Source: the human T2T-CHM13v2.0 reference genome, Homo sapiens. From it: DNA of 64,000 nt. The notes under the pieces are model-generated. The model was not told the DNA's origin, did not search any database, and worked only from the letters and a program-made list of their open reading frames with translations. Of the stretch, positions 11,146 through 63,101 are shown piece by piece. The translations under genes and the position numbers were made by a program. Positions within the stretch are counted from its first letter, which is position 1. Each line of letters opens with the position of its first letter. The stretch lies in assembly GCF_009914755.1 (NCBI RefSeq), contig NC_060944.1, one strand, 5' to 3'.

Positions 11146-11329
11146 CTTGTAACTATAAATGGCAATCTTGACAGGCATGTGCAGGGGCTAGTTGGTCATG
11201 TCACCTGCTGTCTTCAACAGGGACATAAAAACCAGGGGGAACCGCATGAGGAAGATCAAAGCAAATGTGATGACACCCCCAACTCCATGTTTCCCAGCCT
11301 CCTCTTCTGCTCAGGAGACTGGGGTGTTT
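11146..11329 (-). pseudogene. PIEZO pseudo-exon, outer pore helix
   Basis: KHP(fs)SPEQKRRL(fs)KHGVGGVITFALIFLMRFPLVFMSLLKTAGDMTN*PLHMPVKIAIYSYK vs [56 protein letters not shown]. 184 = 189-5 bp; TAG at 11188-11190; donor GT>AT. Confidence 0.95.
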
Positions 11330-11449
11330 CTGCTGAAGAGGGCAGGCAGGTCAGGGCCATGCCTTGGATCAGACAGACGTGGACTCAAGGGAGGGCAGGT
11401 TGGCAAATCACTCTTAAAAGTTGGAGGAGGGTGGTTGATTCAGAGAATG

Positions 11450-11605
11450 TCACGCTAGGGTCAGGGGGAGCTGGAGTCATGTCCCAATGCCACTACTAAC
11501 CAGCTATGTGACCTTGGACACACAGCCGCTCTAAGCTTCAGTCTCCTCCTCCATAAAATGGGAATGAAAGGATGCCTGCTTTGCCAGGTGGTTTTGAGCA
11601 CTCCC
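11450..11605 (+). mobile_element. MIR
   Basis: MIR core gctatgtgaccttgg..cagtctcctcctccataaaatggga. Confidence 0.75.
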
Positions 11606-11802
11606 AAGTGATGGTGGGGAGAATTCAACATGGGCTCTGCCATTTTACTGAGGATTCACTACAAACTCCATGAGCCCTGGGAGCCAGGGTCAAGCTGCCA
11701 GGTAAGCACCTGGCACACTGGGCAAGACATGAGTCTCACTGCTGTAGGGACAGGACTGAGGCAAGGAAAATTGCCACCCCCACGCCACCCACCCGCACCC
11801 AC

Positions 11803-11950
11803 CTTCTCAGACTCCCACCAGTGCTTCATGATGAAGACCTTTGCACACAGGTTCCCCAGATGGATCCAGTTAGAGAGGCTGAGAGCAGTGTCCATCCATA
11901 CCCAGTCTATGACAGCTCTCGGCTCCAAGAGGAAAGGCTCAAGGCAGAAC
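11803..11950 (-). pseudogene. PIEZO pseudo-exon, anchor domain
   Basis: FCLEPFLLEPRAVIDWVWMDTALSLSNWIHLGNLCAKVFIMKHWWESEK; about 30/49 identical to recalled PIEZO2 and 27/49 to PIEZO1. 148 bp, open, AG/GT intact. Confidence 0.97.
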
Positions 11951-12509
11951 CTGGAGCACAGAGGACCACCAGGAGGTCACCAGGGGACACTGGTCCATCC
12001 AATCTGTCCATGCCATGTCATGTCTCCCCATCCTGTCACCCAACCCATCCATCACCTCATCCATCCCATCATGTTCCACTCCACCCCAATGCCTTCAAAA
12101 CCCGATATACCCTATTTATCCCATCCCCATCCACCTCAGGCCCCAGCCACCACAGCGATCCCATCTGTTCACCACCCTTTCCACAAATAATCACATTCTC
12201 CAGCAGGCCATGTGCTAAGTATTCAGGATATGTGGGTGAAGAAGGAAGACAGAACATTGGAGTAGGATGACACTGATGACCTGCAGGGAGCCAGGTATGA
12301 TCGTGGTAAGTGTTGCAAAGGAAGTCACCAGGCAGTGGCCGGGTACGTCAGCTTGGGGGTTTGGGGAAAGCCTTTATGCCAAGACCTGAAGGATGGCACA
12401 GAGGATGAGACAGAACCAGCTCTGCAGCAGAAGGGTGGAAGGAGCTGCTCTCAGGACTGCTGGCCCAGGCAGAGAAAGAGCAGGACACTGTCCAGGAACA
12501 GAGGGCCCC

Positions 12510-12935: not shown

Positions 12936-13849
12936 CTGTCCTTTGACTTGGTCTCCAAGGCCTGTTCCAATGTCTCCTGACTCCAGAAAACCCTCCAGAC
13001 TTTTCCTCCCATCCCCAAGCAGAGCAGTCACCCATTTGGCACAGGCCTCAGGACCCAGGGACCCTGATGGACTCTGGCTTGGACTGTGGTCTGCTGTTAG
13101 TAGATGTATGTCCTGTCTCTTCAGTGGCATTCTCAGTCTCTTGAGGGGTCCAGATGCCTTTGACACTTCTGTGAGCCCTGAGACACAGAACAAGACATGC
13201 TCCTTGAAATCCAGAGCTGGAGGGAACCCTGGCTGTCCCCACGGTCACTGCATCCCATCTCCAGCCACTGAGCACAGACTGGAGCTGAGGGCATTGTGAG
13301 GCAGTCTGGTCTCTCTTTCCAGCCCCATCCTGGCTGGCAAATATCTCAGGTTCCCAGAGTCTTTAATGACTTCTCAAGGAGACCAGGAGCCCTGGACAGG
13401 GAGGAGGCAGCAGCTGCAGGGCCCCTGAGAAGCCCCTGTAGCCAGCTTAGCACAGGGCCTGTCCTTTGCACTGCAGCCCCAGCCTGATTTGTATCCAGCT
13501 TTCCCCTTAATTAGTAGGAGCTTTTCAGAGAAGCAATAAAACAACAACATAGCAACTTGGACGGGGCACAGAAGGCAAGAGCCATTTCGGTAATGGAGTC
13601 GGTGGAATTGCTATTCTAAAGAGAGAGAGTGACCACTCTCTGCTTTTAAGAAAGCTGAGGGCAATGCTATCCTGTCGTCTGCCTGGTTATTAAGGATAAC
13701 TAATGGCTGCCCCTGCCCCCAACAACAGAAGGAAATTGCAGAAGGAAATTCCATGAATCCAGAGTCCTGGGCAGTGATTCCCAGGAAACCAAAGTGCTGA
13801 GCTCGACAGTCTGGGGGGAGCTGCATAGGCCCGGGGCTCGTTTGCTTAC

Positions 13850-13993
13850 CGTGAAGGCCTAGTCAGTACCCAAAGAGGATGAGGGCAAAGTTGAACACGT
13901 CCACCAGGAACGTGAGGACTTAACCTCCAGCTGGCCTGCAGGTGGGTGAAGTTGTGGAAGAATTGGCAGATGGGGTGGTAGACCTGGAAGGTC
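13850..13993 (-). pseudogene. PIEZO pseudo-exon, ~THU9 TM33
   Basis: TFQVYHPICQFFHNFTH..(fs)VLTFLVDVFNFALILFGY*(+4)AFT|gtaagc vs TLEIYVPIKQFFYNLIH..VLMFLADTVDFIIIVFGFWAFG. TGA at 13863-13865. Confidence 0.92.
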
Positions 13994-14529
13994 CTGAAGG
14001 CAGAGGAGGATGCTGTGGGCCACCCCCAATTTGGACAATTCCTCACAACCAGCTGGAAGGTTCTAGGAGGATGCCATAGAGGACTCCGTGGTTTGACAGA
14101 TGGGGAAGCTGAGGATGGCACATGTGTTTATTTTTCCCAAGCTTGTATTTGCGAAGAGCACTGAAGGCAAGTACTCTGGTGTTCAGGGACCGATCTTCAG
14201 GGGAATGCCGGGCTTCTTTCTCACAACACCTGAATTCCTCCTACCATGAGTGCTGTTGCACAGCACTAACCCAAACACAGACGCTGCAGGGTTAGTCCAG
14301 TGCAGCTGGGGAAGAACAGGTACCAGGTTTATGTCTCCACTGTGTGACATTAAGCAAGTTGCTCTGTTTCTAAGCCTCAGGTTTCTCACCACTGAATGGC
14401 AGTGGTGAGCCCTAGCCTGACTATGTCATGGGGGGGCATTGAGGGGAAACGTTGGAGTCAATGTGAAGCCACCTTGGGAATAAGAAAGTGCAATGGGCAT
14501 GTGTGATTATCTCCACAGCTGGGCAAAGA

Positions 14530-15210
14530 GGATGGGCAGGTAGGGAGGTGGGTAGATTGGGTGAATAGGGAGTGGATGGGTGGGTGGATACATGGAGGAG
14601 GGTGGAGGGATGGGTGGGTGAATGGATGAGTGGATGGGTGAGTGGATGGATGGGTAGGTGGTTTGATGGGCAGGTAGGTAGGTGGATGGATAGATGAGTG
14701 GGTAAACAGATGGGTATGTGGGTGAATGGATGGACAAGTGGATGAATGGGTGGGTAGGTAGGTGGATGGAAAGGTAGGCCATGAATGGATGGGTAGATGG
14801 ATGGGTGGGTAGATGCATGGATGGGTGGATGGATGAGTGGGTGGATGGGTGGGTGGATGGATGGGCGGGTAGGTGGATGTGTAGGTAGATGGTGGGTAGG
14901 TGGATGTGTAGGTAGATGGTAGGTAGGTGGATGGATGAGTAGGTGGTTTGATGGGTGGGTAGGTAGGTGCATGGATAAATGGGTGGGTAAATAGATGGGT
15001 AGATGTGTGGATGGATGAGTGGGTAGGTGGGTGAATGGATGGGTGGATGGGTGAGTGGATGGATGGGTGGATAGGTAGGTGGAATGGAAGGATGGGGTAG
15101 TGAATGTATGGGTATATGGATGGGTGGGTAGATGGATGGGTGGGTTGAAGGATGGGTGGGGGGATGGATGAGTGCACGGGTGAATGAGTAGATAAAGGGA
15201 TGGATGGAAA
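14530..15210. repeat. Degenerate (GGAT/GGGT/AGGT)n array
   Basis: Seen directly. Confidence 0.95.
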
Positions 15211-15696
15211 TAAGGAAGGAAGCATAGTTAGATCAAGAGATGATGACTGAACACAAGGAAAAAAGGAAAGATAAAAAATGGAAAGAGGGTTGGTTGGGTA
15301 GGTGCAAAGATTGTTAGTTAGGTGGATGAGTGATTGGACTGGCAGATAAAAGGAAAGACCAAAGTATGAATTGACAAATGCTTGGGCAAAAGCATGGATG
15401 AATAAATAATCTCCTGCAGTTCTACAGACAGACCAGGGAGAGGGCAAGGATGTGTGCTCTTAGAAGTGGCAGATCCAAGTCTAGGATCTGACTCCTGCAT
15501 GAGTGTTCCTCCCAAGGCCCAGCTCTAGGCCCCACCATGTGTGGATCCAGGGGCACATAATCCCACATTAACCATGCGGCCCTCCTTATCCATGCCAGCT
15601 CTACCTGCAGCTAAGAGTTGGTCTGTGAGGAAGGGGGAAAGGCACCCACCTCACGGCCTTCCTCTCCCATTCCTTCTAATGAAGTCTCCTAATTAC

Positions 15697-15826
15697 TTTT
15701 TAATGACCTGCTTCCTGGCTTTCTCCAGCTGTTTCTTCAGCATCCCTTGGCTGAGTTGCTTTTGGCTGAATGGGAATTTCCTGAGTAGGCTCCATCTCTT
15801 CTTGGATTCTGGGTCTTGGGGACCCC
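15697..15826 (-). pseudogene. PIEZO pseudo-exon before THU9
   Basis: GPQDPESKKRW..MLKKQLEKARKQVIK aa|gtaatt vs PIEZO2 KLQEHLIKAKAFTIKK. Open; phase 2 joins g|TFQVY. Confidence 0.8.
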
Positions 15827-16272
15827 CTGGCAAGACACAATAATACAGGTCTCCTCCTTGACCTTTTCTCCCAGAAGCTATTTTAGTTGGGAGCACTCTG
15901 CCCATCTCCTCCACTGATTCCCATCCCCATGACCAGCCCCACGTGCTTTCCACCAGTGTCTGAGCTCAGGCTGGGGGTTTGCTCTGTCGTGTCCCCTGAT
16001 CCCAAGGGGCCAGGTCTGGAGCCCCAGGCCAGACAGGAGAAAGCCTGGTGGGGTGGGGAGCAGCAGGGAGGTCTGGGGTGAGGAGGAAGTATGTAGTGGG
16101 CCTGGGAACAATGACCAGCAGACCTTCTCCCAGTCCCATCACTTGGGAACCCCAATGGCCCACACTTTGCCAGATTCTACAGCTGGTTTGAGACTATGGG
16201 GGGCTCCTCCTCAGGGGCCTGGGGTCCAGACCAAGTAGGGTATAATCTACTCTGCAATACTCTTCAGCACAC

Positions 16273-16431
16273 CCAGCGGTGGGCTGGCAGTTGCAAAGGC
16301 AGCTCCTAGGAGTAGGGGTTCTGCTCAGCCTGTCTCATGAGGTGGCCACAGCCTGGAGCCCCTTGGCTGCTTTTTATTGCTTTCTGCCCTTTTTCTTCCC
16401 CTTGCAATGAACAGGTCCCAAGCCCTAGAGA
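16273..16431 (-). pseudogene. Tentative GLWD pseudo-exon
   Basis: Pyrimidine tract then SLGL(W)D (1-bp loss) vs CYGLWD/CHGLWD, followed by a charged linker. Ends approximate. Confidence 0.35.
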
Positions 16432-17197
16432 GGCAAGGCAGGCAGGGAGGAGGGGGCTGAGGAGTTTCCACCCACCACCATGGCCACACAGCCTCCCCAA
16501 ACTCACACTCGGCCAGCAAACCAGATGGAGGATATGGGGACTGGAGAAGGTGCTGGAGTCTCTGCAGAGAGCAGGAGGGGAAGCACAGGAGAGAGGGTGG
16601 GTGTGGCTTCCTGAAGGCAGGGAGAAAGCAGGAGAGAGGCAAAGGAGTATAAAATAAATCCCTGGCAGGAAGATGAAAAAGAAAGGTTTCTAGGGAAGGA
16701 CAGGCAAGGTGATGGGGACAGGTTTCTGCAGAGTGGGACAAGAGCAGGAGCATGAGAAGACAACTTGGGGGCTCCCTGAAGTTGTGGTGAGAGGCGAGGG
16801 AGCCGGCACACAGTGGGGCTCACTGCTGAGGAAGGACTGCAGCCATGGCTCAGAACTCCAGGGAGGTTAGCCAGGGAACAAGAAAGTCCGAAACCAAATG
16901 ATTTAAATTTCACTGAAAAGAAAGCACGCTCAAACAGAAGGCAGGGCAAGTACCACTGGAGGCAGAACCAGGACGTGAAAATTCCATTGTCAGTCTCTGC
17001 TGTTGTGACATCCCTGGCCAAGGAAGAGGCTCTAGCAGCCACAGGGAGTCTCAGTTTCCACATCTGGAAAACGGAGGCAGTTACTATGGCCTTGGCCAAT
17101 CCCCTCTCACTTTCATCAGAAATAAGAAATGAGCAAAGGATGCCTCCTAGGAAATGGAATGAGCTTTCACAACCCCCCTGCTCTGGGGCTGGCGTCC

Positions 17198-17385
17198 CTT
17201 CCTGGTAGAGCGGTGGGTGAACAGCACAAGTAACTGCAGGAGATCGCAGAGGACACAGCTGTCCTTCTTCTCCATTCCAATTATATTTGGCAGGGAAAGT
17301 GGCTTTTCCCCACTGATGCCAGTGTATCATTTTGTGGTCCAGGGAAAGAATCCAAACTGCAAAATTATTTGACCACGACAGTGGC
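17198..17385 (-). pseudogene. PIEZO pseudo-exon, ~THU8 TM31-32
   Basis: ATVVVK(fs)LQFGFFPWTTK*YTGISGEKPLSLPNIIGMEKKDSCVLCDLLQLLVLFTHRSTRK vs VAIVVKYFFQFGFFPW..KPYHPPNIIGVEKKEGYVLYDLIQLLALFFHRSILK. 188 = 189-1 bp; TGA at 17327-17329; donor GT>GG. Confidence 0.95.
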
Positions 17386-19970
17386 CTCCAGAAAGGCAGG
17401 AGAAACAGAGAGGGAAAGCCGTTGCAAACGGTCTGATGAACACGCACACACATGCGCGCACACACCCATAAAGCAAGTGAATGCCTAGGAAGCGCTCAGT
17501 GTATGCTAACGTGCGTCACAAATGTAAGAGACTGTTCTGGTCATCATCAGAGGCTAGAGATTAAAAGGAAATAAAACACCAGAAACCACCGTGAATACAT
17601 AAGCTGGCCCCATGTGACACTGCTGAAGGCTGGCCAGCCTTTTTAATTTCTTTGAGCTATTACTCCCTTTTTAATTTCTCCTGACATTTGTTGCCTGCTA
17701 AATCAATTTGATACATGGCAGGCAGGTGAAGATGGCTCTCCCAGCCTACCCCTTCTCATCGGCGAGTCGAGGAATAGTGGTTTTAAGAGATTGTCTTTTT
17801 ATGCTGAAAATGCTCAAAAATGGCTTTGTTTCCTTTGGCAAGAGGAAAAGGTCACCCAAAGTCCCCATCCTTTGAACACTGATAGATTATCAGACATCAG
17901 GGAGAGCAGTTTTCTGAGCCAAGAAAGTGAATGACCGGATGCGTCATGTTAGACAGTTTCTTTAATGCTATTTTTGGGCGCCACCCCAGGACAGAGAACT
18001 GCTTCTGTTTCACCAGCTCTTATAGTACAAGTTCTTCTGTCAGATAAATAGCCTCACGACTCGTGGGGACCCCCTTGGGGGCTGGCTGTTGATGCTCCTG
18101 TGTGGAAGCTGGTTCACACAGGGAGATAACGGAGGAGTAGGCGCAGAAAGATGCCTCCGGTCCTGGGGAGTGGGCAGTATCCCCCACATCTGTCAAAAGT
18201 AATCCTGGCAGCCAGGATGGAACTGGCTGATGGGGAATCTCCCTGTGTGATGCAGAAGAGGGTTCAGGAGTGGGCTCTCATCTCCAATTCTGCCTTGGAC
18301 CAATGCCCTTTTGGTTTCCTTGTCTGTAAAATTTAGGGGGTTGGTCTAGATGATCTTTAAGGCACTCTCCAATTTGACCTTCTCTAACTCTCTTTAAAAA
18401 CCTATTTTTACTAGTCAATTGGAACTGAGAAGGAGAGCCAGCCCTCTAAGTACGAGTGCTACACATGGAGAAGCCACAAGGTCTATACCTTTGGAATCCC
18501 AGCATGACTTCATGACTCCAAATAACTCAATTGGCAGGGACAAGTTCAGACACTGGCGTGTGTGGTTTTCTCTAAAGCACCCCAAACGTGGCACGTCATG
18601 GAGAACCATGCTCTGCAGATGAAAGCTGGAGCTTCAAAGGCTTGAGGCAAGAACAGGCGAGTCTTACCCTGAGAAATAACTCGGACTCTGTAGGAGTTGG
18701 GAATGACCCTTAGGATGTCACCAGGCACCATGGGGAAGAGGGCCTGGGTAGATTAGGGATGTCTGCCATGAGCACCTGATGGAAGAAGCCACATGCAGGC
18801 CAAAGGGTATTTCCCTTTCCTGGTAGAGGAAATGTCAATGAACATGGAGGCAGGAGATGTGGGCCCTTGTCAATGACTCAGGCATGTCATTCCCGGCCCA
18901 TGTTCCCTCCCTTTGCAGGGCCTGGCCTCTCTGGAGGCCCCTAGGGATTGAAGGATATGAAGGGGGATGGAAAGTTGTGTAGACCCTCCCAGATCAAGCC
19001 ATCCAAATGTGAGATGGTATTAACAGAAGGTCAAATTAGAGGAATAGTTTAAGGGGCATCAAATTTTATTGGACTCAGCTCTATAAGCAGTCAGTCAAAA
19101 CCAATCTGTTTCATTTATACTTGGGAGGATCTACTTGTACACAAAAAAATGTAACAAGGACTTTTAAAAGTGCATTTTTCCAGTGGATTAAAATTTTCTT
19201 TATAATGATGTTTACTGTTTTTTTTAGAAAAACCAAACCAAACAAACAAACAAAAAAACCCACAAATCTTTCTTTCTAGCTCGTACAGTCCTGGGATATC
19301 AGAGTTTAAAAGGAACCAGAATGGACTCTGGCCAGCTGCCTCTTCCCCTAGGAGTCTTCAGTGATTCTGAAGGAGGGGACACAGATCTAGGCGGCTTCCC
19401 TCCCTCCCTCCCCAACCACAGCTCTTGGGAGGGGAGGGGCAGTGACAGGAGAGGAACCATAGTTCATGCTGACAGGCTTATAAAAATGATGTGGTGGGAG
19501 AAAGAACCCAATGACTGGTACTTAACTCTTGCTCTAATTAATTTCGTAGACAGGCTGTCTTCAAGTTTGCAAATGTGGCATTGGAGTCAGAAAGAGCACC
19601 AGAGCTAGTGGTAAATTATGTCCAAGATGCAAAAAGAAAAAAAAAAGATAAAAACAGAAGCATGCATTCCCAAAGTCCACTGTATAAGTATTTGCTACGT
19701 GTGAGGCAGGTGGAAGTACTTGTTATCACTTCACCTGACTTGTGAAAGCTGACGCACTCTTGGGAGACAATGAGAACAGTAGGAGTTGCATTCTCTGGTT
19801 CCACCAAGTCAGGTGTTTTGATTCTAGCACCTGACATGTGGCAGTGTTGTTGTATAAAGTCACCTCAAAGGGTGTGGGTGGCTGGGATGGTGGTGGGTGG
19901 AGTGTCTCATCTGCTGCCATAATCCACTGGCAGGAGCTGGGTCCTGGAGGGGTCTCCCCTTGGTACCTAC

Positions 19971-20227: not shown

Positions 20228-20651
20228 CTGGGGGACGAAGTGACCCTGCCGTGAGTCCCAGAAAGACAGGCCTACAGCCCCAGACAAGAAATACCAATAG
20301 GTAAAAATAATCCTAGATTTTTTTCAAACTCTACACAGGGAGCAATTTTTTACTTTCCTGGAGCACTCAGCCACAAGGTTTTCCATTTAACAGGCACGCC
20401 CTAGAGGCATTTTAAAAAAATATGTCATTTGAAAAAGAAAAAAAAAAAAGCTCAATTGCTCACAATTTCTCTATTGAGTAAAGTATTTTCAAACAAGTAA
20501 TCAAATTCAAAGAACCATTTGCTTTGTATTGGAGAGTATATAGCATAACCCCATTTAGCTTAACTTGCTAATCCAAGTACAACTATTTGGGCGGCTGGAT
20601 TGAATAAGAAAAACATGCTGGTGCCTAACCTGGGTTACAGATACTCCTTGC

Positions 20652-28276: not shown

Positions 28277-28284
28277 GATTTTGG

Positions 28285-53433: not shown

Positions 53434-54279
53434 GTGGAATGGGCTACAGGGGAGAGAGCCATGGTTGAGAAGCAGATCTCTACCTGGGTCCTACCAACAA
53501 AGACACCTGCCTTGACAGGTCCCACAGCCCTTTCTTTTGATATCTAAATGGGATTTGGTTGTGAGCGGCTGAGGTGGGGCCCACCCATGGTCCTTTAAGC
53601 TCACGTGACCTGAGAAAGTGCAGCATTTTCAGAGAACCATCTAGAACACCATCTAGTGCTTTTGGCTTGGACTCAACAGCCAAGTTGAGGGGTGCAAGCT
53701 GAGGATGGGCTTTGGTGAGAGTCTGATGGAGCCGCTAGAAGGGAGTTAGAGCACTGTGGGGCTTCAGTTTGTGGGCTCCAGGCCCACATCACAGCAGAGC
53801 AACAGAGCAGACCCCAACAGAGCAGAAGTGTCCAGGCAGCAAGATGCTGATGGGTTCTTGCCATGTCCTCCCTACCCTTGATGTTGGAGCTCCAACCTTG
53901 AAGCCTTGGAGCTGGAAAATGGAAAATGCGTCTTCAAAGACCTTGAGCAGCTGGGAGCCTTGCAGAGGCATCCCACATGGACAGAACTAACTAGAAGAGT
54001 CCCTCTCTATCACATTCTGTGCTTATGATGGCCCCATGGGGAACCTGAGAAGGCCACGGGGCCACCATAAGCAGCTCCTTTGGCAGATGCAGGTTCTAGC
54101 AAATAACTGCTCTATTTCCTCTACAAGTTTCCACACAGGAAGCCGGGGGGCTGGCTTCAGTCTGCAACTACATCTGCTTCTGATCCCAGAAGCCCGTCAA
54201 TTCTGGCAGAACTAAGGGTCTTTTAGCAAATTGAACTGCAGGAGCTATGACCCATGAGTCTGAGAAGCCAAATTCTTAT

Positions 54280-54428
54280 CCTTTTTCAGACAGCCCCAGA
54301 GTTTGGTTGACAAATCCATCAAAGCTTTGGAACTGCTAAGTGTAGACAGCCCTAAGGGCCACCACTGAACGAGACACCATGACCGTCCAAAAGCGCTTCA
54401 GGACGCTCCTCCAATTATTGTTTTGTAT
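54280..54428 (-). pseudogene. PIEZO pseudo-exon, ~TM15
   Basis: IQNNNWRSVLKRFWTVMVSRSVVALRAVYT*QFQSFDGFVNQTLGLSEK vs VHYEWWRKILKYFWMSVVIYTMLVLIFIYTYQFENF. 149 bp as expected; TAG at 54336-54338; donor GT>AT. Confidence 0.9.
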
Positions 54429-55577
54429 CTGCAATTCAGGCAGAGCCCCTGATAAAACGCACTGCGGGTTATTGGAGAAATGAAAAGAGCTGGAGCCAGC
54501 AGGGCGGGAGCCGGCTGCAACCTGGAAGGGCCAAGCATGAGTTTGGAAGTACAAACACCCCCGTGCAGAATCATATTTTCCATCGGAAATCTTTGCTGGA
54601 GAAAGCCCAAGCTCATTCTCATAGGAGGGTCTGCGCCAGTTTTTATGAGACTCCAAAATGAAGTTGGAGTTTGGGCCTTTGGCTTAGTTGCCTGCAGAAA
54701 AAGCAAGCTCAGAGCTGGAGGAAGTGAACCACCTGGGAAGCCAGGAAGCCCCGGGGCTGGGAATTTTGTCTGTTTATTGAGCGATTTGGGTGGTATTGGA
54801 AATCAATCTCTCCCTCTCTCTGGGCCTCTCTCACACACACCCACTCTCTCTATCTGTGTGTGGGAACTTCAGGGTTATCCGGAGGGAAGGGTTGGAGTGT
54901 GTGGTGTGGATGAGGCCATGTGACCTTATTGATAAATGCAAGTGGTCTCCCAGCGGTTTCTCCTGGGACCTCTACCATCACCCTGTGATGCTAGGAGCTG
55001 CCCACCCTGTGTGAGAGCAGGAACCAGAAGGCAGACGGGACAGAGGAGGGCTGGGGCCAGCCCTGCAAGTCCAGCTCCCCAGCCAGCGTGGGGCTATGCT
55101 TTCTAAGCCGTGTCCCCTGAGAATGCTGGCAATGCCAACACGGAGGTGTTCAGGAAGGACGTGAAGTCACTGGGCTTTGGCCTGGGTCTCGCCTTCTGTC
55201 TGGTCCCCAGGGTCACCCAGATGTGCAGCCTCTGGACGTGGCTCACCTCTTCCCTTTTACAGAGCTGATCCCCCCACTTCTCCTCATCTGTGGCTGCAGC
55301 CATCAGGAAATGTCGGCCAACCATGCCTAATGCAGGTCCTGTGACTTTTGCTTGAGCTGGGGTCAGATACTTAGCTGAGTGACTGCGTGCAGGAGCCCCA
55401 GGAGCAGCACGGCCTCCCCCAACCCATGGAGACAGCACCGGGCACAGGGCAGGCACCGAGGCTTCCCCACAGCCGTTTGCCCATAGGCACTGCACAGGGC
55501 CAGAGTCGGTAGTGCAGGAGGCAGGGGCTCCAGGCTCAGCAGAGCAGCACAGCAGGAGCTTGGAGCTGTGCATTCAC

Positions 55578-55740
55578 CTGTGCAAGGCCACCCAGGGCAG
55601 GAAGAGAAAGAGGTGGATGCTCCTGTAGGGCACACCCAGCTACTGGAGCTGTCAACCACAGCAGGGCTCTGTGGCTGTGAATCCAGGAGAACTTGGAGGA
55701 AGGAGCCCAGAGCAAGATGCTGGTGGGCCTCGCCTGGGTT
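55578..55740 (-). pseudogene. PIEZO pseudo-exon, ~THU4 TM13-14
   Basis: LGSFLQVL..WIH..VDSSSSWVC(P)YRSIHLFLFLPWVALH(Q)|gtgaat vs LGNLVVAMFIKYWIY..FVSFEGKIVMYKIIYMVLFLFCVALYQ. Several indels; start approximate. Confidence 0.75.
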
Positions 55741-56209
55741 TTGGGGGAGGAAAGCGGGGAGGAGGCCGTCAGGGTCGGCTCTGTTTGGCTGGGCCCCCAG
55801 TGTGAAGAGAGCACGCTTTCTCCCACCATCTTCACCCTCTCCCTAACTCCTCTCCAGTTGAGTGGTGCACCCAGGGGTGCATTCTTAGAACCCCAGGAGG
55901 AAAAGATAAGAACCAACAAGAGAGTCAAAGCTAAGGGGACAGAGAGGCCTCCTCCAAAGCCCTCTCATGGTCTCCACCACCCTGAGCAAGGGCTGTCTTC
56001 AGATAGGAGACGTGGCTGACATCCCACCTATGACCAGAGAATTCCAGACCCAACAACAAAGGCCAGCATGGAAGAGCTCTGCCCCCAGTGTGGGCATTTC
56101 CCTGGATTGTGGTGGCCCTGCCCTGAGCTTCTGGTCGTGTCCTGGGTCACGTAGGACCACTCACTGTGTGTCTCCTGAGAGCCACCTGAAGAAAAAGAGC
56201 AAGCAAGAG

Positions 56210-56368
56210 AGAGAAAGACAAAGAAGGAAAGAGAGAGAGAGAGGAGGGGAGGGGAGGGAAAGAGAGAGAGAGAAAGAAAGAAGGAAAGAAAGAAGGAAAG
56301 AAAGAGAGGAGGGAAGGGGGGAAGGGAAGGAAAAGAGAAAGAGAGAGACAGAGGGGAAGGAAAAAAAA
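56210..56368. repeat. GA-rich low-complexity tract
   Basis: Seen directly. Confidence 0.85.
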
Positions 56369-56664
56369 TTCTAAGTACTCCGTGGCATTCGGTCTTTCAG
56401 GAAGTCATTATTAGGTGCCACCTGTATGCCCAGCTCATGCTAGGCATTGCAGAGGCCACTAAAGAGCTGGAGGCATTAGCTCTGTCCTCCAAGGAATCAA
56501 AATGTAGTTGGACATAAATGATCCAAAGAAATTGCTGGAACCCAAAGAAGAGGGCACATGATGTTGGATGTGTATCCTCTCTCATTCCCAGCAGGGATGA
56601 GGATGGGGAGATGGCAACGTGGACCACCCTCACTTCCTCGGGCCGCCACATGAAAAAGTCTAGC

Positions 56665-56922
56665 ACAGGGACTCGCAGCCACGGGCAGTTTTGCACCACC
56701 CACCTCCACCCCCCGCCCCCCCCCCCCCCCCCGGGGACATTTGGCAAGTCTAGAAATATTTCTTTTGGATTGTTGATTACTAGGGATGTGGGGAAATGCT
56801 ACTGGCATCTAATGGGTAGAGAGTCCAGGGATGCTGATGAACATTCCAAAATGCACAGGACAGGCCCACAACACAGAATTATCCAGCCCCAGATGCCAGT
56901 GGTGCTGAGATTGGGAAAACCA
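56665..56922. mobile_element. MER20-like hAT element
   Basis: ggggacatttggcaagtctag..tgctactggcatctaatgggtagag..gggatgctg..aatgcacaggacag. Confidence 0.8.
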
Positions 56923-56940
56923 GCTCTGGCACTGCAGCTA

Positions 56941-57307
<367 letters not shown>

Positions 57308-58085
57308 TCACTGCTGGCCTCTTCTGTCTCCTCATCAGTAGATTGAGGATGATGATTGTGAGAATGGAATGAGATGGTTCACAGAGAAGGCTTGAGGGCA
57401 GTGCCTGGCTCACGCATTTCAAGTGTTTGTTCTCACCGTTATTAAAAACCTGCAAACTGCCAAACTAGGACAGAAACTCGTGAGCTTTTTGCTCCTCAAC
57501 CCAGGTTTTTCTTGCTCATGGAACACTCCCCAAGAAAGTGCAAGGCGCAGCTTGGCTTGTCTTGGGATCTGCCTTGGTGCTGCTCCCAGATGTATGCAAC
57601 CAGCTCTCGGGATCCCTATGGCCAGCCGGCCCCACCTTTGGGGGGTGAGATGTGTGGACAGGGCCCCAAGCTGACTCATCCCCTCTAGAAGACAAGTGTC
57701 CATTCCCTCTCACTCCTATTGTTGTCTTAGGGATGAAGGGTTTTCATGTACAAGCCTAGGGTTTGGGACGGTGTGGGGTTTGGAGGCCTTCCTGGGGATG
57801 CCAAGGGGCTTGAACCAGAGACGGTCTTTCTCTGTTCCAGCAGGAAAAAAGCTGATGAGTCCAGCTCCAAGCTCTGCCCCTGGGGCTCCCTGCAGTGCAG
57901 AAGGGGCAGGTCCCACCAACTCCCATTAGGGGACAGCATCACCTGGCAGGGGAGGAGGGCTGCCCAGGGCTGGCCTGGCCAAGAGCTCTCTGACGCATGT
58001 TCCTTGTGGCATGACCAGGATGCTGAGCTGGGACTCGGGGACTTGGGCCTGCCAGCTGGAAGCCAGCAGGGAAGGCTGTTGTTGG

Positions 58086-58168
58086 TTAACTCTCTGGTAA
58101 CAATTTGTACAAACGCCACCAGGCCCGTGGAAGCCTCGCTTTCGTCGGAGCTGTGGTTCCCCAAAAGC
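58086..58168 (-). pseudogene. Tentative PIEZO pseudo-exon preceding TM9
   Basis: caacag|g LLGNHSSDESEASTGLVAFVQIVTR(fs)ES* vs PIEZO1 REASPLHSLGHLIMDQSY / PIEZO2 AMVSVFQFIMKQSY. Confidence 0.35.
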
Positions 58169-58639
58169 CTGTTGCAGATCCAGAGTCCTCTGCACGTCTT
58201 TTCCTTTCCTTCCTTCCAGAAGCCTGAACTTGACCTCAGTGGCAGGGCTGCGGCGACCTCGGCTGCCCTTGCTGCCTCTTACCCAGCCTTCTGTCTGGCC
58301 CATTCTTTGTTTAGGTTTTTTGGAGAATCATCCGGGGGTGTTTGCATTCTACTTCCCTTCCCCAGACCCAGCAGCCCCCACCCGCGGCAACAGCAGCCTC
58401 CACACATCAGCGGCACTCAGCGGCCTCTGTGGGCCAGACCGCGGGGTGTTTAAACGCTCCAGCCGCTTCAAGGTCTCCCACGTCCATCCGCTCAGTAATA
58501 CGTGATGTATCATGCATACAACTATGAACAAAACCAACCCCTGTGCATGCATCCATGCTGCGTGCAGCCTGGTAGCTGTATAATACCAGCTGTAATAGAG
58601 ACATTTGAGAATTGTGCACACACACAAATATAAAATTAC

Positions 58640-59290
58640 AGCTGTGATCAGAACTGTGACAAGAGGTACACAGTGGTGACAGAGCCTGAAATTGAGGGAC
58701 TAGTCAGAGAGGCCAGGGGAGGCTCCCCAGAGAAGGTGAGGACTGGGCCTTGGGAAGGAATAATGAGGGCCACCTGAGTCAAGGAGGGAGCAAAAATGAG
58801 CCTGACATGAGCTTGACTCCCAGAGAGAGGGATTGAGGAGGAAGCCAGGGGAGCTGGAGCCCAGAAAGCAAAGATTGTGATATGATTGAAGACAGGAGAA
58901 GGAGGCCATAGGGAAGGTTTTAGGCAGAGGAGGGACAAGGTTAGATTGACTGGAAAGGATGTTTCTAGCTGCGATGTAGAGAATAGACTACAGGGGACGA
59001 GCATATTTGGACAGATCAGTTGGAGGGCATTGGAGAGGTGCAGGGAAAATTAGGGATTCATGCACTGGGAGGGTGAGGTGGAGTAGCGAGGAAAATGGGT
59101 GATTCCAGAGAAATCTAGGACAATCAAAAACACCCTTACTGTGGATTAGGTAAGACTTGAGGGTGAGGAAGGAAACTTGCTTACAGATTTTGGATGGATG
59201 AGACACCATTCGCCAAGGCAGAAAACTGGGAGACCAGACTTGGAGGGAGAAGTCCTGGGCCTGGTTTGGAGCCGGTGAGGTCTGAGGACC
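58640..59290 (-). mobile_element. L2 fragment
   Basis: ggaggctccccagagaaggtgag..gggaaggttttaggcagaggagggacaaggttagat pattern. Confidence 0.65.
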
Positions 59291-61745
59291 TCTAGGCCAT
59301 CCAGGGCCATTCTCCATGTGAGCCCACGCTCCTTTCCAACCGAGAGCTGCTCACTCCACACTACAATCCATGGACTTAACCAGGGATAGTTCTCCAGCCA
59401 GGAGTGAACTTCCTGCCCCCTCTCCCTAGACCCAACCCTTCATTCAAGGCAAGCTCTTCCTCCAGGAAGTCCTACCGGATAAACCAGCTTTGGTCCAGCA
59501 CCCCTCACTGAAGCAGTGATGAGAGACCCAGGTACCCAGTTACCATCTTGCAAGACCGAAGCCTGCAAGAAGCGCTTCCCCGCACAAAAAAGAGGTTCCA
59601 GCTCTGCTTCTCTTTGCCTTTTACCCTAGTTATTCACATGCACATCCTGGCGCCCTGCCTGGAGGACAGAAACCCTGCCTTGTAGTCTTTGTAGCCTCCA
59701 CAACCCCACGCCCAGGGTCTTGCATTGAGCCATCACCCAGCACCGGCATTGAACCACAGCTTCCCCTCCAAGCCCCGGTGGTGCACAGCCACATTTACAT
59801 CCCAGTATATGCGTTCCAAATAGGCCGCAGGAGGTGCTTGCTGAAACACCATTCCATCTTGTGCTCAGAGCCGAGGTCGAGCAAATGGATCTGCGCAGAA
59901 AATGCTCTTTAAAATGCATTATGCTCATGAGTTTAAAGAGACGCCTGCTGCTCAGTGAATTTAAAACAGGAGCAAGCCGGTGATGAATGACCTCAGGTTG
60001 TTACAAGGCTAAGAAACAAGGAGCTCTGTCTGCCTGCCTGTAAATAAAGTGTGGACATATATCACCTACAGGGCTTTGCCGGAGGGAGACTCTTAAACCT
60101 ATTGGACAGGAAAACACAGTTCCCAGCTCATCAGAATATCATACAATAAGGTTCTTATTCGGATAAAATATGAAAACAGTCACAGCTGTGGGGAGGGGGG
60201 CCCCCCCCCCATACCCATTATGGAGGACAGGGTCTCCGGGATGGCATGACTCAGGGTCACAGTCCTACTTGGACTTGCTTGGGTGTGAAGGTGGCTCCTA
60301 CGCTGAGAGCAAACACCTGGGAAGTGACCTGAAGGCAGGAACAAACAGGTGTGATTGTTGTTGGGTTTTTTTTAAAAAACGAATCTAGCAGATTTTATTT
60401 TTTAACTTTTCTATGCTGGGTGGCACTACGAAGACAGGTCCTAACCTGGCTTAATGGGGGAGGAAATTAGTTGAGGTCATCTATAATATACTAATTATAT
60501 CCTTCTGTGCCCACTCCTCTTAGAGCCAGCTGTGAAATTAACAGTAGAACAAGCTGTTAGCAAGCCATGATTAAATATGCCCCATGTCCAGTGCACCGTG
60601 GTAGGCACTGTGGGGGGGTTGGAGGGAGGGATTAAAGACCTGCAGAAGCCCTTCTGCTGCTCCAGGGCTCTGCATACAGATGCAAGGCAGCTCTGGAGCA
60701 ATTCTGGAGCTAAGTGCAAAGCAATGACTCCACTCTGAGCAGCTGAACTGGGAAGGTGAAGGCATCCCACTGTGATGGGCTAAGAGAAGAGAGGTTTCCC
60801 AGGTGAGCCATGTTTTCAGTTTACGCTCACTTTGGGGAGCAGAGTTGGCTGTCTGCAGACTTCCTTTCTCTGTATTACAAACCATCCCAGGGTCCCTCTG
60901 GGCCTGGGTGTTGGTGTCATCATGGGGCTGTGCACAGAAACAGATACAAGATGAAGCATGGGCTCCACGCCACCAAGGTGAGCAGGTGTATAATCACCCT
61001 GGCGTGAGTGGTTTGGACAATTATTCATACAGACTGTTTCTTCCAAGATGGACAGCTTCTCATCAAGGCTCAGGGAAGCTGGGTTTGTGACCTTGGGCAA
61101 GTTATTTGCTTCTGGAAACCCCAGCCCCCCCTATCTGCAGATGAGTAGTGCCTGCCAACCAGTCCCCAGGGTGCATTTGTGAGCCCGAACCACTTCCACC
61201 ACTTCCGCATGACGTTTATTGGGCAAAGCAATGAATGATGCACGGGTGCCAGATGCCCTGCACTGGGAGGCAGGCTTCTTGCTTAGCTCCTCGGGGCAAG
61301 CCTCATTCATTGAGCAAGCATTTACTGAGCACTTGCTGAGTACTAGGAGTGTGCTGGCCACAGCACAGCACTGCAGGTACGCTGCCGACCGGCACCACTT
61401 TGGCTCGCTGAGCTTGGAATTTCCATGGTGGTTTAACTCAACCCTGCACACGTTTCACAGCAGGCTCCCCACCCTCCACTTGCTAAGGAGACAACGCAGC
61501 AGATGGTGAAGGCGGAAACTCTGGTGTCACACTGCATGGGTTCAAATCCCAGTTTGCCACTGAATGCTGTAATGTGAGCAGGCGACACTCCCTCGATGGA
61601 ATGAAGGGCATGATCATGTCAAGCACTGATGCGGAGGATACTCTCAATAAACTGACCTCCTGTTGCTGTTACTATTACGCTATTTTTAAAAGAAAGTGTG
61701 TGCTTGCCGTGGCACGTGGCTGTGCAGAGCCAGGTGAGGGTGTAC

Positions 61746-61851
61746 TCAGTTGGCCTTCCTCCCTGCCTGAGGCCCACGGCACAGAGCGCAGCTCGCGGTC
61801 TTCACTTTTGCTTTGTGACTTTGGGAGGTGCACCCCCATCTCCCCCTGTTC
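61746..61851 (-). pseudogene. Tentative PIEZO linker pseudo-exon
   Basis: Acceptor tgtgttttcctcgag, phase-0 start, EQGEMGVHLPKSQSKSEDRELRSVPWASG (weakly like PIEZO2 RRRSLWYAT), GT donor. Position fits. Confidence 0.3.
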
Positions 61852-62123
61852 CTCGAGGAAAACACAGATTTTTAAATCTTCCGCCTTCTCTAGAGTCCCC
61901 TGTGAGACTGACTGGCGTATAAAAAAGCCCTCCACAGGAAGAAGAGACCGCAGAGTAGAATATTTTAAATTGAGGCTACTTGCCTCCAGAAAACCCTGCC
62001 TCTGGGTCTCTGCCTCTGAGGCTGCAAGTCTCTGGGCCATTGAGCAGGAAGCGCTTCTCCAACATCTCAGCTGTGTTCCAGGATTCCCAGCAGAGAGGCT
62101 CACCGCCATAGGGGCGGGACCCT

Positions 62124-62425
62124 GAGCCACGTGTGGCTATTTAAAACATCCAAAACATGATTACTTCAACGTGGAGACAAAAAATATTGCAATATTTAGT
62201 CTTTTTTTCTATACCATGTTTTCAAAATCTGGTGTGTGTTTTTGCTCTTACAGCATATCTCAATTCAGATGCTGCATTTTCATCAGAAACACTTGATCTG
62301 TACTTAGATTTCGTAAAATGTAAAGTGGAAGACAGATTCATACATTTGGGCTGTTCCAAACAAGCATTAAAGTTTTCCAATAACTGAATCAGGTGTTACT
62401 TTTTTTTTTTCATTTTAATTAAGTA
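62124..62425. mobile_element. MER33/Charlie-like hAT element
   Basis: gccacgtgtggcta..ttttcatcagaaacacttgatctgtacttagatttc..gttttccaataactgaatc. Confidence 0.7.
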
Positions 62426-62941
62426 AAAGGACACCTCTGCTCCTCGGCCGTGCTGGCTCCCACCACTGCGGTCCAAGCTCAAGCCCTGATATAAGCCACA
62501 CCTGGTAAAACCTCCCAGGGGCTTCTGAATTCATCACAAGACAACCTCCCAGAGAGGCCGTCCCAGGCCTCGCATGGGTCGAATGCCCAGGAACCTATGC
62601 CTCTGTCAGTGAGCAGCTGTAATTTTTTTTTTGCAATTCCTTCACACATTAAGCCAAAACCTGCCTCTTTGTAACTTACACCCTCCTACCTTCCTTTTGT
62701 TCCCCAGAGCCAAGTGAAGGCAAGTTGGCTGCCTCAGCTGTGCGACAGCTCTTCAAAATTCTAAGGCAACTCTCACACTTCCCTAGCCTTCCCCTCTCCC
62801 ACTCCAAACCATCACACTCGATCTGTTTAGTACCCACAGGAAGAGAAACCTAGGAAGCAAGTATCAGTCCTTCACACTTTAGTAGAAATTGGCCCATCAA
62901 CTTGCTTTCCTCTGCAGGGCTGGGAAGGTGAACAGATGCTC

Positions 62942-63101
62942 CCAGCTATCTGGGGCCCACAGAGGCAGCAGGAGGACCAGTGTGTAATAGGACAGCAGCA
63001 GAATCAAAGGGTTTATCATCTCTGCCAGCCAGAGCCTGGATGGCAGTGGAGTTTCCAGGACACTGCGGTTGGTCCTGATGCATGCGATCATCTCCAGCAG
63101 C
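62942..63101 (-). pseudogene. PIEZO pseudo-exon, ~THU2 loop + TM8
   Basis: cag|g LLEMIACIRTNRSV(P)WKLHCHPGSGW(P)EMINPLILLLSYYTLVLLLPLW vs PIEZO2 LFGIKSVIQTDCSSTWKIIVNPDLSWYHHANPILLLVMYYTLATLIRIW. Compensating -2/-1 frameshifts; donor degenerate, end approximate. Confidence 0.85.

What the first reader, a model, noticed from the sequence alone, without database searches (positions are those of the whole stretch)
11146..63101. Fossil of a third PIEZO mechanosensitive channel gene, reconstructable exon by exon
Seen: 26 exon remnants (plus ~6 tentative) on the minus strand in exact PIEZO order, many matching ancestral length to within the counted indels and joining in compatible phase. Known: humans have only two functional PIEZOs. 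Inference: introns exclude a retrocopy. Divergence from both paralogs (only ~55-60% identity even in the anchor) and PIEZO2-like segments (LLLKPVK, MDFY, LDDGL, IKK|T, W.ESEK) mixed with PIEZO1-like ones (LAY.AW, WLYLPDF) argue for a separate ancient paralog, not a PIEZO1 copy. I recall this locus as PIEZO1P2 and recall a vertebrate piezo3 having been reported, so the gene's existence is probably not new. The PIEZO1P label would be misleading, and the ORF track shows only scraps of it.
Basis: partly seen in the sequence, partly recalled or inferred. Interest (0 to 1): 0.9.

Follow-up and report, generated by a model that had tools for sequence, protein, structure and literature searches.

The report
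Human fossil of the PIEZO3 gene
This stretch of human chromosome 20 holds the decayed, exon-by-exon remains of a third Piezo touch/pressure-channel gene (PIEZO3) that other vertebrates still use; it is real, but it was described in a 2026 preprint.

Summary
On the minus strand, 21 PIEZO3 proteins from other vertebrates each give a collinear chain of 20-40 matches. These merge into 32 clusters inside the window (63103 down to 11134). Of these, 25 are seen by at least 5 of 21 references and 7 are weak. Plus-strand and reversed-query controls give 0-1 chained matches.

The fossil runs past both window ends, from about -12.3 kb to +74.4 kb (86.7 kb). It reaches from a start-codon exon to the C-terminal motif. 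RefSeq annotates only 11803-36945.

In trees it sits inside the placental PIEZO3 clade (100/100). AU tests reject grouping it with PIEZO1 or PIEZO2. It is dead: 22 in-frame stops and at least 6 well-supported frameshifts lie in the window.

New here:
- the full extent of the fossil;
- it is not a "processed" pseudogene;
- PIEZO1P1, 669 kb away, is a truncated PIEZO1 copy, not a PIEZO3 piece.

The parts
63104..64000 (-). Former intron at the right edge of the window. The fossil CONTINUES OUTSIDE the window (loci L018/L019) with five 5' remnants at window coordinates 64406-64246, 65089-64892, 66861-66814, 66994-66872 and 74405-74248 (exon 1, ATG kept).
   Evidence: seen by 17, 6, 2, 9 and 5 of 21 references; exon 1 reads MASEVTSGFLFRALPP.... 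HMM hits of 21.7 and 19.9 bits; stop at 64379 and frameshift at 64311, each seen by 16 references.
62936..63103 (-). Exon remnant, N-terminal TM region (PIEZO3 HMM positions 286-341).
   Evidence: 17/21 references; 31.6 bits.
55577..61821 (-). Tentative remnants at 61821-61723, 57966-57754, 55856-55710 and 55633-55577. Most of HMM positions 341-639 is not detectable here.
   Evidence: 2, 7, 1 and 1 of 21 references; the fragments at 57930 and 55856 were misplaced in the alignment; no HMM hit.
54279..54434 (-). Exon remnant, Pfam Piezo_TM1-24 positions 590-641, with an in-frame TAG.
   Evidence: E 1.5e-6; 15/21; translation shows the stop; stop at 54338 seen by 15 references.
53261..53516 (-). 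Exon remnant, end of Piezo_TM1-24 (positions 639-682).
   Evidence: E 4.4e-10. E 2.8e-6; 20/21; 60.7 bits.
48917..49575 (-). Two exon remnants: 49575-49373, split by a frameshift at ~49435, and 49150-48917, with a stop at 49081.
   Evidence: 9, 6 and 18 of 21; frameshift seen by 6 references, stop by 18; 26.2 bits.
47622..47766 (-). Exon remnant, followed by a GT donor.
   Evidence: 20/21; 30.1 bits. '...PCLK|gtaggg'.
44768..45037 (-). Exon remnant with an open frame (holds LDDGL). It overlaps exon 2 of lncRNA LOC105372695 on the opposite strand.
   Evidence: 21/21; 77.3 bits.. Hub annotation.
42682..42915 (-). Exon remnant with two frameshifts and two stops (holds MDFY).
   Evidence: 21/21, three frames; frameshifts at 42851 and 42762; stops at 42792 and 42744.
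40611..40758 (-). Exon remnant (holds WLYLPDF).
   Evidence: 15/21; 17.6 bits..
39363..39546 (-). Exon remnant split by a frameshift at ~39466.
   Evidence: 20/21; 20.7 and 22.1 bits; frameshift seen by 15 references.
36661..36948 (-). Best-kept exon: Pfam Piezo_TM25-28 positions 18-103, open frame (holds LLLKPVK). This is the upper end of the RefSeq PIEZO1P2 span.
   Evidence: E 2e-22, 90 bits.; 64-68% identity to the top long hits; 108 bits.
34992..35075 (-). Small exon remnant.
   Evidence: 19/21; 20.8 bits; 83% identity to the best placental PIEZO3.
33432..33641 (-). Exon remnant, Piezo_TM25-28 positions 143-190.
   Evidence: E 4.4e-9. E 2.2e-5; 21/21; 53.2 bits.
23850..30569 (-). Remnants of the poorly conserved cytoplasmic-loop exons: 30569-30366, 29327-29178, 26985-26830 (holds LAY.AW), 26135-26052, 24778-24665 and 24176-23850.
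   Evidence: 9, 4, 7, 1, 1 and 5 of 21. GT donors after 30369 and 23922; the fragments at 26135 and 24170 are doubtful.
19968..20254 (-). Exon remnant with a frameshift at ~20051.
   Evidence: 21/21; 59.2 and 41.3 bits; frameshift seen by 19 references.
17138..17394 (-). Exon remnant with in-frame stops.
   Evidence: 21/21; 57.8 bits; two stops in the translation; stop at 17329 seen by 21 references.
13836..16437 (-). Remnants at 16437-16213, 15878-15681 and 14094-13836 (frameshift at ~13930). A G-rich minisatellite at 14572-15174 lies in the intron between them.
   Evidence: 6, 10 and 14 of 21; 15.7 and 10.8 bits...
11803..11961 (-). Exon remnant, Pfam Piezo_THU9_anchor positions 152-200 (holds W.ESEK), followed by a GT donor. 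This is the lower end of the RefSeq span.
   Evidence: E 3.6e-11. E 2.5e-7; 63 bits..
11134..11307 (-). Lowest in-window remnant. It matches the PIEZO1 exon that carries THU9_anchor positions 200-238. Stop at 11190.
   Evidence: matches PIEZO1 locus 7536-7637; that PIEZO1 exon; 20/21; 39.9 bits; stop seen by 20 references.
1..11133 (-). AT-rich stretch (GC 0.31-0.43) with no detectable remnant; the first cap exons (HMM positions 2312-2414) are missing or unrecognisable. The fossil CONTINUES OUTSIDE the window to the left (loci L016/L017) with cap and C-terminal remnants at window coordinates -7211..-7387, -9662..-9721, -11394..-11611, -11981..-12046 and -12064..-12321. The last exon reads ...KLVFLHCSPETMIKWTQ.
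   Evidence: composition; seen by 15, 12, 17, 13 and 20 of 21 references; 19.0, 24.6 and 13.9 bits, and no hit between 11191 and -7241..

Best explanation
The window holds most of the human unitary pseudogene of PIEZO3. PIEZO3 is the third vertebrate Piezo mechanosensitive-channel paralog, and it sits in its ancestral place between NPEPL1 and GNAS. The human copy is annotated as PIEZO1P2.

It is the ortholog of the 'PIEZO2-like' genes predicted in some placentals, marsupials, platypus, reptiles, amphibians and fishes. It is not a copy of PIEZO1 or PIEZO2, and it is not a retrocopy.

The gene kept its exon-intron layout and decayed in place by point mutations and small indels. No whole-gene deletion occurred: remnants run from the start-codon exon (window +74.3 kb) to the C-terminal exon (-12.1 kb).

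Shown here: homology, order, strand, extent, disabling lesions and phylogenetic placement. Inferred: it makes no channel, and any present role would be as transcribed or regulatory DNA. The long terminal branch and the lesion load suggest an old loss, tens of millions of years ago, which could not be dated with these tools.
For: Collinear chains and controls:
- 21 of 21 PIEZO3 references give minus-strand chains of 20-40 HSPs (975-1864 bits, 50-62% identity) spanning -12321..74405.
- Plus-strand and reversed-query controls give 0-1 chained HSPs.
- A PIEZO3 HMM gives 25 collinear hits of >=10 bits on the minus strand and 0 on the plus strand.

Pfam families appear in the right order: TM1-24, then TM25-28, then THU9_anchor.

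Phylogeny:
- 23 rows x 1564 columns, careful search: placental PIEZO3 plus the fossil has 100/100 support, and the mammal clade 100/100.
- 53-row quick tree: same placement; the PIEZO2 and PIEZO1 clades each have 100.
- AU tests reject fossil+PIEZO1 (delta lnL 467, p 1.5e-9) and fossil+PIEZO2 (delta lnL 506, p 1.3e-49).
- Bias control with fragments chosen only by 10 PIEZO1/2 queries (822 columns): 60-64% identity to placental PIEZO3, 45-46% to PIEZO2, 42% to PIEZO1, same clade.
- Single species carry both a PIEZO2 and a member of this clade: Amia, Protopterus, Bufo, Pelodiscus, Astyanax, Megalops.

Lesions: 22 distinct in-frame stops inside window HSPs, 9 of them seen by >=5 references. Frameshifts seen by >=5 references lie at 6 window sites.

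Position: between NPEPL1 and GNAS (hub annotation). The preprint reports the gnas-piezo3-npepl1 synteny and names PIEZO1P2 as the relic.
Against: - The fossil's end branch is long: 0.71-0.81, against 0.22-0.34 for other placentals. IQ-TREE flags its letter make-up as deviant. Its exact sister within placentals is unresolved.
- The main fossil row was assembled from HSPs chosen with PIEZO3 queries. That row had 254 clashing alignment positions and 5 misplaced fragments. answers the bias concern, but only with a quick tree.
- About 37-60% of the protein has no detectable remnant. HMM positions 341-639, 1364-1789 and 2312-2414 are largely blank.
- The 'intact' placental orthologs are unreviewed gene predictions, and some look flawed. 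The Tupaia model P0005 matches one window exon twice.
- Synteny in other species was not tested here.
- The 53-row careful tree did not finish.
Confidence: 0.95

Rival explanations
1. As the name PIEZO1P2 implies, it is a duplicated (unprocessed) pseudogene copied from PIEZO1.
For: Database curators named it after PIEZO1. PIEZO1-like proteins do give collinear matches: P0072 gives 13 HSPs at 42% identity, and the ORF-to-ORF comparison with the PIEZO1 locus is collinear.
Against: Identity to human PIEZO1 is the lowest of the three paralogs: 33.5% over 1417 columns and 42% over the best 805 columns. The AU test rejects grouping it with PIEZO1 (p 1.5e-9). The locus-derived human PIEZO1 falls in a separate 100/100 clade.
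Confidence: 0.01
2. It is a decayed copy of PIEZO2, matching NCBI's 'PIEZO2-like' names for its relatives. It would then be a lineage-specific duplicate, not an old paralog.
For: Its relatives carry names such as 'component 2-like' or even 'component 2'. The exon 1 remnant starts MASEV, as does Amia PIEZO2.
Against: The PIEZO2 clade (12 rows, fishes to birds) is separate with support of 100. The AU test gives p 1.3e-49. Six species carry both genes. The fossil's clade follows the species tree from fishes to placentals, so the split predates bony vertebrates.
Confidence: 0.02
3. It is a processed pseudogene or processed transcript, as the preprint words it.
For: The preprint calls it 'this processed PIEZO1P2 pseudogene transcript'.
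Against: The remnants are spread over 86.7 kb in gene order, with intron-sized gaps and GT donors right after several exons. A retrocopy would be contiguous, as the PIEZO1P1 fragment is.
Confidence: 0.01
4. The locus still encodes something: a shortened Piezo-like protein, or a functional RNA or regulatory element co-opted from the dead gene.
For: - One exon has a 107-codon open frame, and a 90-residue protein entry identical to it exists in the public library.
- The preprint cites GTEx expression in spleen and testis.
- RefSeq lists enhancers inside the fossil (hub annotation).
- A parent-of-origin methylation QTL is described as lying upstream of the annotated pseudogene (passages only).
Against: Stops and frameshifts lie in most well-aligned exons, so no long Piezo frame can be spliced together. 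The evidence for an RNA or enhancer role is circumstantial and was not tested here.
Confidence: 0.12

Closest known systems
PIEZO3 (zebrafish si:dkey-11f4.7 and its orthologs; Dong et al., bioRxiv 2026, PMC13228305)
   Same: Same ortholog group by phylogeny. Same chromosomal neighbourhood, NPEPL1 to GNAS (hub annotation; preprint text). The preprint already equates PIEZO1P2 with the human relic.
   Different: The human copy is dead, with stops and frameshifts. The preprint gives only the Ensembl span (43.3 kb, a 2161-bp transcript) and calls it 'processed'. Here the relic is 86.7 kb, has introns, and runs from the start codon to the C-terminal motif.
PIEZO2
   Same: Same family, same Pfam domain order, and a similar N-terminus.
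   Different: 45-46% identity on the best 822 columns, against 60-64% to placental PIEZO3. Separate clade, and the AU test rejects the grouping.
PIEZO1
   Same: Same family, with collinear exon matches to the human PIEZO1 locus.
   Different: The most distant of the three paralogs: 42% identity and 33.5%. The 'PIEZO1P' label does not reflect its origin.
PIEZO1P1 (chr20, 669 kb to the right of the window)
   Same: It is also a Piezo-derived pseudogene on 20q13, on the minus strand.
   Different: It is a single 493-nt piece, 83.4% identical at the DNA level to the end of PIEZO1's last exon plus about 268 nt of its 3'UTR. The homology stops at the end of the PIEZO1 mRNA. It is 77% identical in protein to human PIEZO1 but only 55-58% to placental PIEZO3. 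The PIEZO3 fossil has its own last exon. So it is a 5'-truncated PIEZO1 copy, most likely a retrocopy, and not the 'rudimentary part of PIEZO3' that the preprint suggests.
Other human unitary pseudogenes (for example GULOP; recalled, not tested)
   Same: A gene intact in other vertebrates that decayed in place, with recognisable exons and kept synteny.
   Different: This is a resemblance in kind only; no comparison was run.

Membership tests
Piezo channel gene family | Significant matches to the Piezo Pfam domains, in the order TM1-24, TM25-28, THU9_anchor, cap. | tested here: met
   TM1-24 at 54279-54434 and 53310-53441. TM25-28 at 36688-36945 (E 2e-22) and 33447-33590. THU9_anchor at 11803-11949. 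There is no Pfam cap hit at this locus, but the PIEZO3 HMM finds cap and C-terminal remnants left of the window.
PIEZO3 ortholog group | Falls inside the PIEZO3 clade and outside the PIEZO1 and PIEZO2 clades. | tested here: met
   100/100 support within placental PIEZO3. AU tests reject PIEZO1 and PIEZO2. The result holds with PIEZO1/2-guided fragments.
PIEZO3 ortholog group | Conserved synteny gnas-piezo3-npepl1. | tested here: inconclusive
   The human side is met: the fossil lies between NPEPL1 and GNAS (hub annotation; coordinates). Synteny in species with an intact gene is known only from the preprint's text. No other vertebrate genome could be searched.
Functional Piezo channel | One uninterrupted coding sequence of about 2500-2800 codons. 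| tested here: not met
   22 distinct in-frame stops inside window HSPs, and frameshifts at 6 window sites seen by >=5 references. Large parts of the protein are undetectable.
Unitary (unprocessed) pseudogene | Exon-intron structure kept at the ancestral locus. | tested here: met
   42 collinear clusters over 86.7 kb. GT donors follow 4-5 of the 26 printed remnants. Exon 1 with its ATG and the last-exon motif are both present.
Processed pseudogene | Contiguous cDNA-like copy without introns, ending at the mRNA 3' end. | tested here: not met
   Not met for PIEZO1P2. The PIEZO1P1 fragment does fit this pattern.

The most novel reading that the evidence does not exclude
The dead PIEZO3 locus has been reused as regulatory DNA of the imprinted GNAS domain. 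The fossil fills nearly the whole NPEPL1-to-GNAS-AS1 side of the interval, and RefSeq enhancers lie inside its former introns and exons (16237-16736, 23185-25178, 57598-58275). A published parent-of-origin methylation QTL, described as 'upstream of PIEZO1P2', would then lie inside the true gene body, because the fossil extends beyond the annotated pseudogene spans (RefSeq 25 kb; Ensembl 43.3 kb per the preprint; 86.7 kb here). If so, part of what is called PIEZO1P2 biology is GNAS-domain regulation built on the scaffold of a lost channel gene.
Probability: 0.15. Interest if true: 0.5.

Novelty: already known. Interest (0 to 1): 0.3.

Why it matters
Humans are taught to have two Piezo channels. 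This locus shows that our lineage once had a third and let it decay in place.

That point is already in a 2026 preprint, so the main claim adds little. The useful additions are practical:
- RefSeq (25 kb) and Ensembl (43.3 kb, per the preprint) annotate only part of an 86.7-kb fossil that runs from the start codon to the C-terminus.
- The name PIEZO1P2 and the word 'processed' misdescribe it.
- The nearby PIEZO1P1 is a PIEZO1 copy, not a PIEZO3 piece.
- Many database entries named 'PIEZO2' or 'PIEZO2-like' are PIEZO3.

A near-complete exon series also makes it possible to date the loss from lesions shared among primates.

Tried and rejected
I switched to single open frames.
- a protein search with window:36653-37174(-) found nothing. 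I had picked the wrong reading frame, and the length limits exclude full-length Piezo proteins. One of three searches was wasted.
- comparing ORFs with the PIEZO1 locus alone was swamped by Alu and other repeats. It gave about 14 collinear hits, too insensitive for a count.
One search fetched only its 5' 100 kb, which was of little use. Human PIEZO2 therefore enters only through three exon loci, and the PIEZO2 clade is represented by named non-mammalian proteins.
- the careful 53-row tree did not finish in two runs. I used the quick 53-row tree and a careful 23-row tree.
- no remnant was found for HMM positions 2312-2414 (start of the cap) in the 18 kb between 11134 and -7211, nor for most of 341-639 and 1364-1789.
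- Dating the loss from branch lengths was considered and dropped. The end branch is inflated by alignment noise and cannot be calibrated here.
- I looked at whether zebrafish 'piezo1b' (GenBank KT428876.1) is the same gene as piezo3. It could not be settled without its sequence.
Those remnants are now described inside in-window parts.

Full report
**What was checked.** The finding claims that 26 (+~6) exon remnants of a Piezo gene lie on the minus strand between 11146 and 63101, in gene order. It claims they belong to a third, ancient paralog and not to a PIEZO1 copy. The hub note places the window at T2T chr20:60512001-60576000, between NPEPL1 and GNAS, with RefSeq's PIEZO1P2 at 11803-36945.

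**Literature first.**
- 'PIEZO1P2' occurs in 4 papers of the library and 'piezo3' in 16. Only one paper is on the subject: Dong et al., bioRxiv, 18 May 2026 (PMC13228305).
- I read its abstract, outline, matching passages, part 1 of 2 of the Results, and the Discussion. I did not see its figures or supplements.
- It names zebrafish si:dkey-11f4.7 as piezo3, a whole-genome-duplication paralog. It reports the synteny gnas-piezo3-npepl1 and loss in birds and most mammals.
- It states that human PIEZO1P2 (GRCh38 chr20:58,740,532-58,783,821, a 2161-bp transcript) 'resulted from PIEZO3 inactivation'. It calls this a 'processed' pseudogene transcript.
- It also suggests that PIEZO1P1 (219 bp) 'is likely a rudimentary part of PIEZO3'.
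- Searches for 'dkey-11f4.7' and for 'piezo2-like' plus 'paralog' found no other source.

**The observation.**
- Pfam models, run on open frames and over the whole T2T genome, hit the window in the right order: Piezo_TM1-24 at 54279-54434 and 53310-53441; Piezo_TM25-28 at 36688-36945 (E 2e-22) and 33447-33590; Piezo_THU9_anchor at 11803-11949. RefSeq's span is bounded exactly by two of these.
- The best exon (window:36658-36981, minus strand) was searched against 1.84 billion representative proteins. This gave 112 hits, led by long proteins at 64-68% identity.
- A follow-up search gave names. The relatives are 'PIEZO2-like' predictions from these groups:
  - placentals: tree shrew, mole, armadillo, two tenrecs, an elephant shrew and three deer;
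  - six marsupials and platypus;
  - turtles, a crocodile and lizards;
  - amphibians, lungfish and fishes.
- No primate, rodent, carnivore or bat is among the 120 listed.

**The chains and the chance controls.**
- With 21 of these proteins, tblastn against the window plus 20 kb to the left and 40 kb to the right gives one collinear minus-strand chain per query. Each chain has 20-40 HSPs, 975-1864 bits and 50-62% identity.
- The chains merge into 42 clusters: 5 to the right of the window, 32 inside it (63103 to 11134) and 5 to the left.
- Of the 32 in the window, 25 are seen by at least 5 of 21 references and 7 are weak.
- Controls with 8 references give 0-1 chained HSPs on the plus strand and 0-1 with reversed queries.
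- A profile HMM of 36 PIEZO3 proteins gives 25 hits of >=10 bits on the minus strand, all in order and 20 of them in the window. It gives none on the plus strand, where the best score is 1.1 bits.
- Five fragments (starting at 57930, 55856, 26135, 24170 and 16404) were misplaced by the aligner. They look equally poor against every paralog and stay tentative.

**Extent.**
- The fossil is larger than the window shows.
- To the right it continues to 74405. There an exon 1 remnant still reads MASEVTSGFLFRALPP... with its ATG.
- To the left it continues to about -12.1 to -12.3 kb, about 1.2 kb from the 3' end of NPEPL1. The last exon there still reads ...KLVFLHCSPETMIKWTQ.
- That makes 86.7 kb, against 25 kb in RefSeq and 43.3 kb in Ensembl (the latter per the preprint).
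- No matches were found further out in the 124 kb examined.
- Large parts stay undetectable: HMM positions 341-639, 1364-1789 and 2312-2414.
- The best single reference aligns 1640 of its 2601 residues (P0117).

**State of the gene.**
- It is dead. The chained HSPs contain 22 distinct in-frame stops inside the window. Nine are seen by at least 5 references: 54338, 49081, 42792, 42744, 26898, 24074, 17329, 16308 and 11190.
- Frameshifts seen by at least 5 references lie at 49435, 42851, 42762, 39466, 20051 and 13930 (examples).
- GT donors directly follow the remnants ending at 47622, 30369, 23922 and 11803, and probably 54279, out of 26 printed.
- Together with the spacing, this excludes a retrocopy and contradicts the preprint's word 'processed'.

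**Which paralog.**
- Over 1561 columns the fossil is 50-53% identical to placental PIEZO3 proteins, 45% to platypus, 34% to Amia PIEZO2 and 33.5% to human PIEZO1 read from its own locus.
- A 53-row quick tree puts it inside placental PIEZO3 (SH-aLRT 100), within mammals (100). The PIEZO2 clade (12 named rows) and the PIEZO1 clade each have 100. The careful search on that set did not finish.
- A careful 23-row tree gives 100/100 for placental PIEZO3 plus the fossil and 100/100 for mammals.
- AU tests reject holding the fossil with PIEZO1 (delta lnL 467, p 1.5e-9) or with PIEZO2 (delta lnL 506, p 1.3e-49).
- The fossil row had been assembled with PIEZO3 queries, so I repeated the work with fragments chosen only by 10 PIEZO1/PIEZO2 queries (19 fragments, 822 columns). 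Identity was 60-64% to placental PIEZO3, 45-46% to PIEZO2 and 42% to PIEZO1, with the same clade at SH-aLRT 100.
- Six species carry both a named PIEZO2 and a member of the fossil's clade.
- Weak points: the fossil's end branch is long (0.71-0.81), its letter make-up deviates from the rest, and its sister among placentals is unresolved.

**PIEZO1P1.**
- The only other Piezo-like hit on chromosome 20 is at 61244785-61245003, 669 kb to the right of the window.
- It matches the PIEZO1 locus at 83.4% over 493 nt. The match runs from inside the last coding exon through about 268 nt of the 3'UTR and stops where the PIEZO1 mRNA ends.
- Its only DNA match to the PIEZO3 fossil is 49 nt over the conserved C-terminal motif. 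It has no DNA match to PIEZO2's last exon.
- In protein it is 77% identical to human PIEZO1 and 55-58% to placental PIEZO3.
- The fossil has its own last exon.
- PIEZO1P1 is therefore a 5'-truncated PIEZO1 copy, most likely a retrocopy, and not a piece of PIEZO3.

**How it works.**
- As a gene it does not work: no channel can be made from it. That is shown here.
- It is inferred that the gene was lost by gradual decay after selection was relaxed. The long stem and terminal branches of placental PIEZO3 hint that constraint had already weakened in early placentals.
- A remaining role as RNA or regulatory DNA is possible but untested. The preprint cites GTEx expression in spleen and testis. RefSeq lists enhancers inside the fossil (hub annotation). 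A parent-of-origin methylation QTL has been reported upstream of the annotated pseudogene (PMC6437195, passages only).

**Verdict.** It is already known, both as an annotated pseudogene and through the 2026 preprint. Interest is modest. The added value is the full extent, the corrected labels and the reassignment of PIEZO1P1.

Noticed in passing
L003 (G000:C20:61243285-61246503), match at locus 1231-1713; 669 kb right of the window: PIEZO1P1 is a 493-nt DNA-level copy (83.4% identity) of the end of PIEZO1's last exon plus its 3'UTR, stopping at the end of the mRNA. It looks like a 5'-truncated PIEZO1 retrocopy and not the PIEZO3 fragment that the 2026 preprint suggests.
   Followed up: yes
Proteins P0139, P0163, P0183, P0202, P0114 and others: Many database entries named 'PIEZO2', 'component 2' or 'PIEZ2' fall in the PIEZO3 clade and not with PIEZO2. 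Examples are Xenopus laevis, Anguilla, Amia, Atractosteus and Tupaia. The same species have a separate true PIEZO2.
   Followed up: partly
One search list: Placentals with long PIEZO3-like gene models go beyond the preprint's list (armadillo, red deer, tree shrew). They also include Tenrec, Echinops, Rhynchocyon, Talpa, Rangifer and Muntiacus. Whether these models are intact genes was not checked.
   Followed up: no
P0005 residues 652-694 and 710-752 versus window 53298-53426: The Tupaia model 'Protein PIEZO2' matches one window exon twice, which suggests a duplicated segment in that gene model or assembly.
   Followed up: no
window 36661-36930 and P0002: A 90-residue entry in the public protein library is 100% identical to the open frame of the best-kept exon. 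Some pipeline has predicted a 'protein' from this pseudogene exon.
   Followed up: no
window 14572-15174: A G-rich minisatellite (units of 12-20 bases such as TGGATGGGTGGGTGGA, about 30-47 copies) lies in a former intron. It explains the strong GC skew at 14-16 kb and the long spurious open frames in three minus-strand frames.
   Followed up: partly
window 63431-63708: A 32-bp tandem repeat with 8.7 copies at 97% identity lies just upstream of the uppermost in-window remnant.
   Followed up: no
window 44975-45419 (+) versus 44768-45037 (-): Exon 2 of lncRNA LOC105372695 overlaps one of the best-kept PIEZO3 exon remnants on the opposite strand.
   Followed up: no
left flank, window -10164..-11800 (+): The predicted protein-coding LOC124904942 (hub annotation) overlaps the fossil's cap-region remnants at -11394..-11611 on the opposite strand.
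   Followed up: no
Literature: A 2019 preprint (10.1101/528588, passages only) describes zebrafish 'piezo1b' (GenBank KT428876.1) as a second PIEZO1 ortholog with mechanosensitive currents. The Piezo3 preprint reports four zebrafish piezo genes (piezo1, piezo2a, piezo2b and the new one) and does not contain the word piezo1b, so the two may be the same gene.
   Followed up: partly
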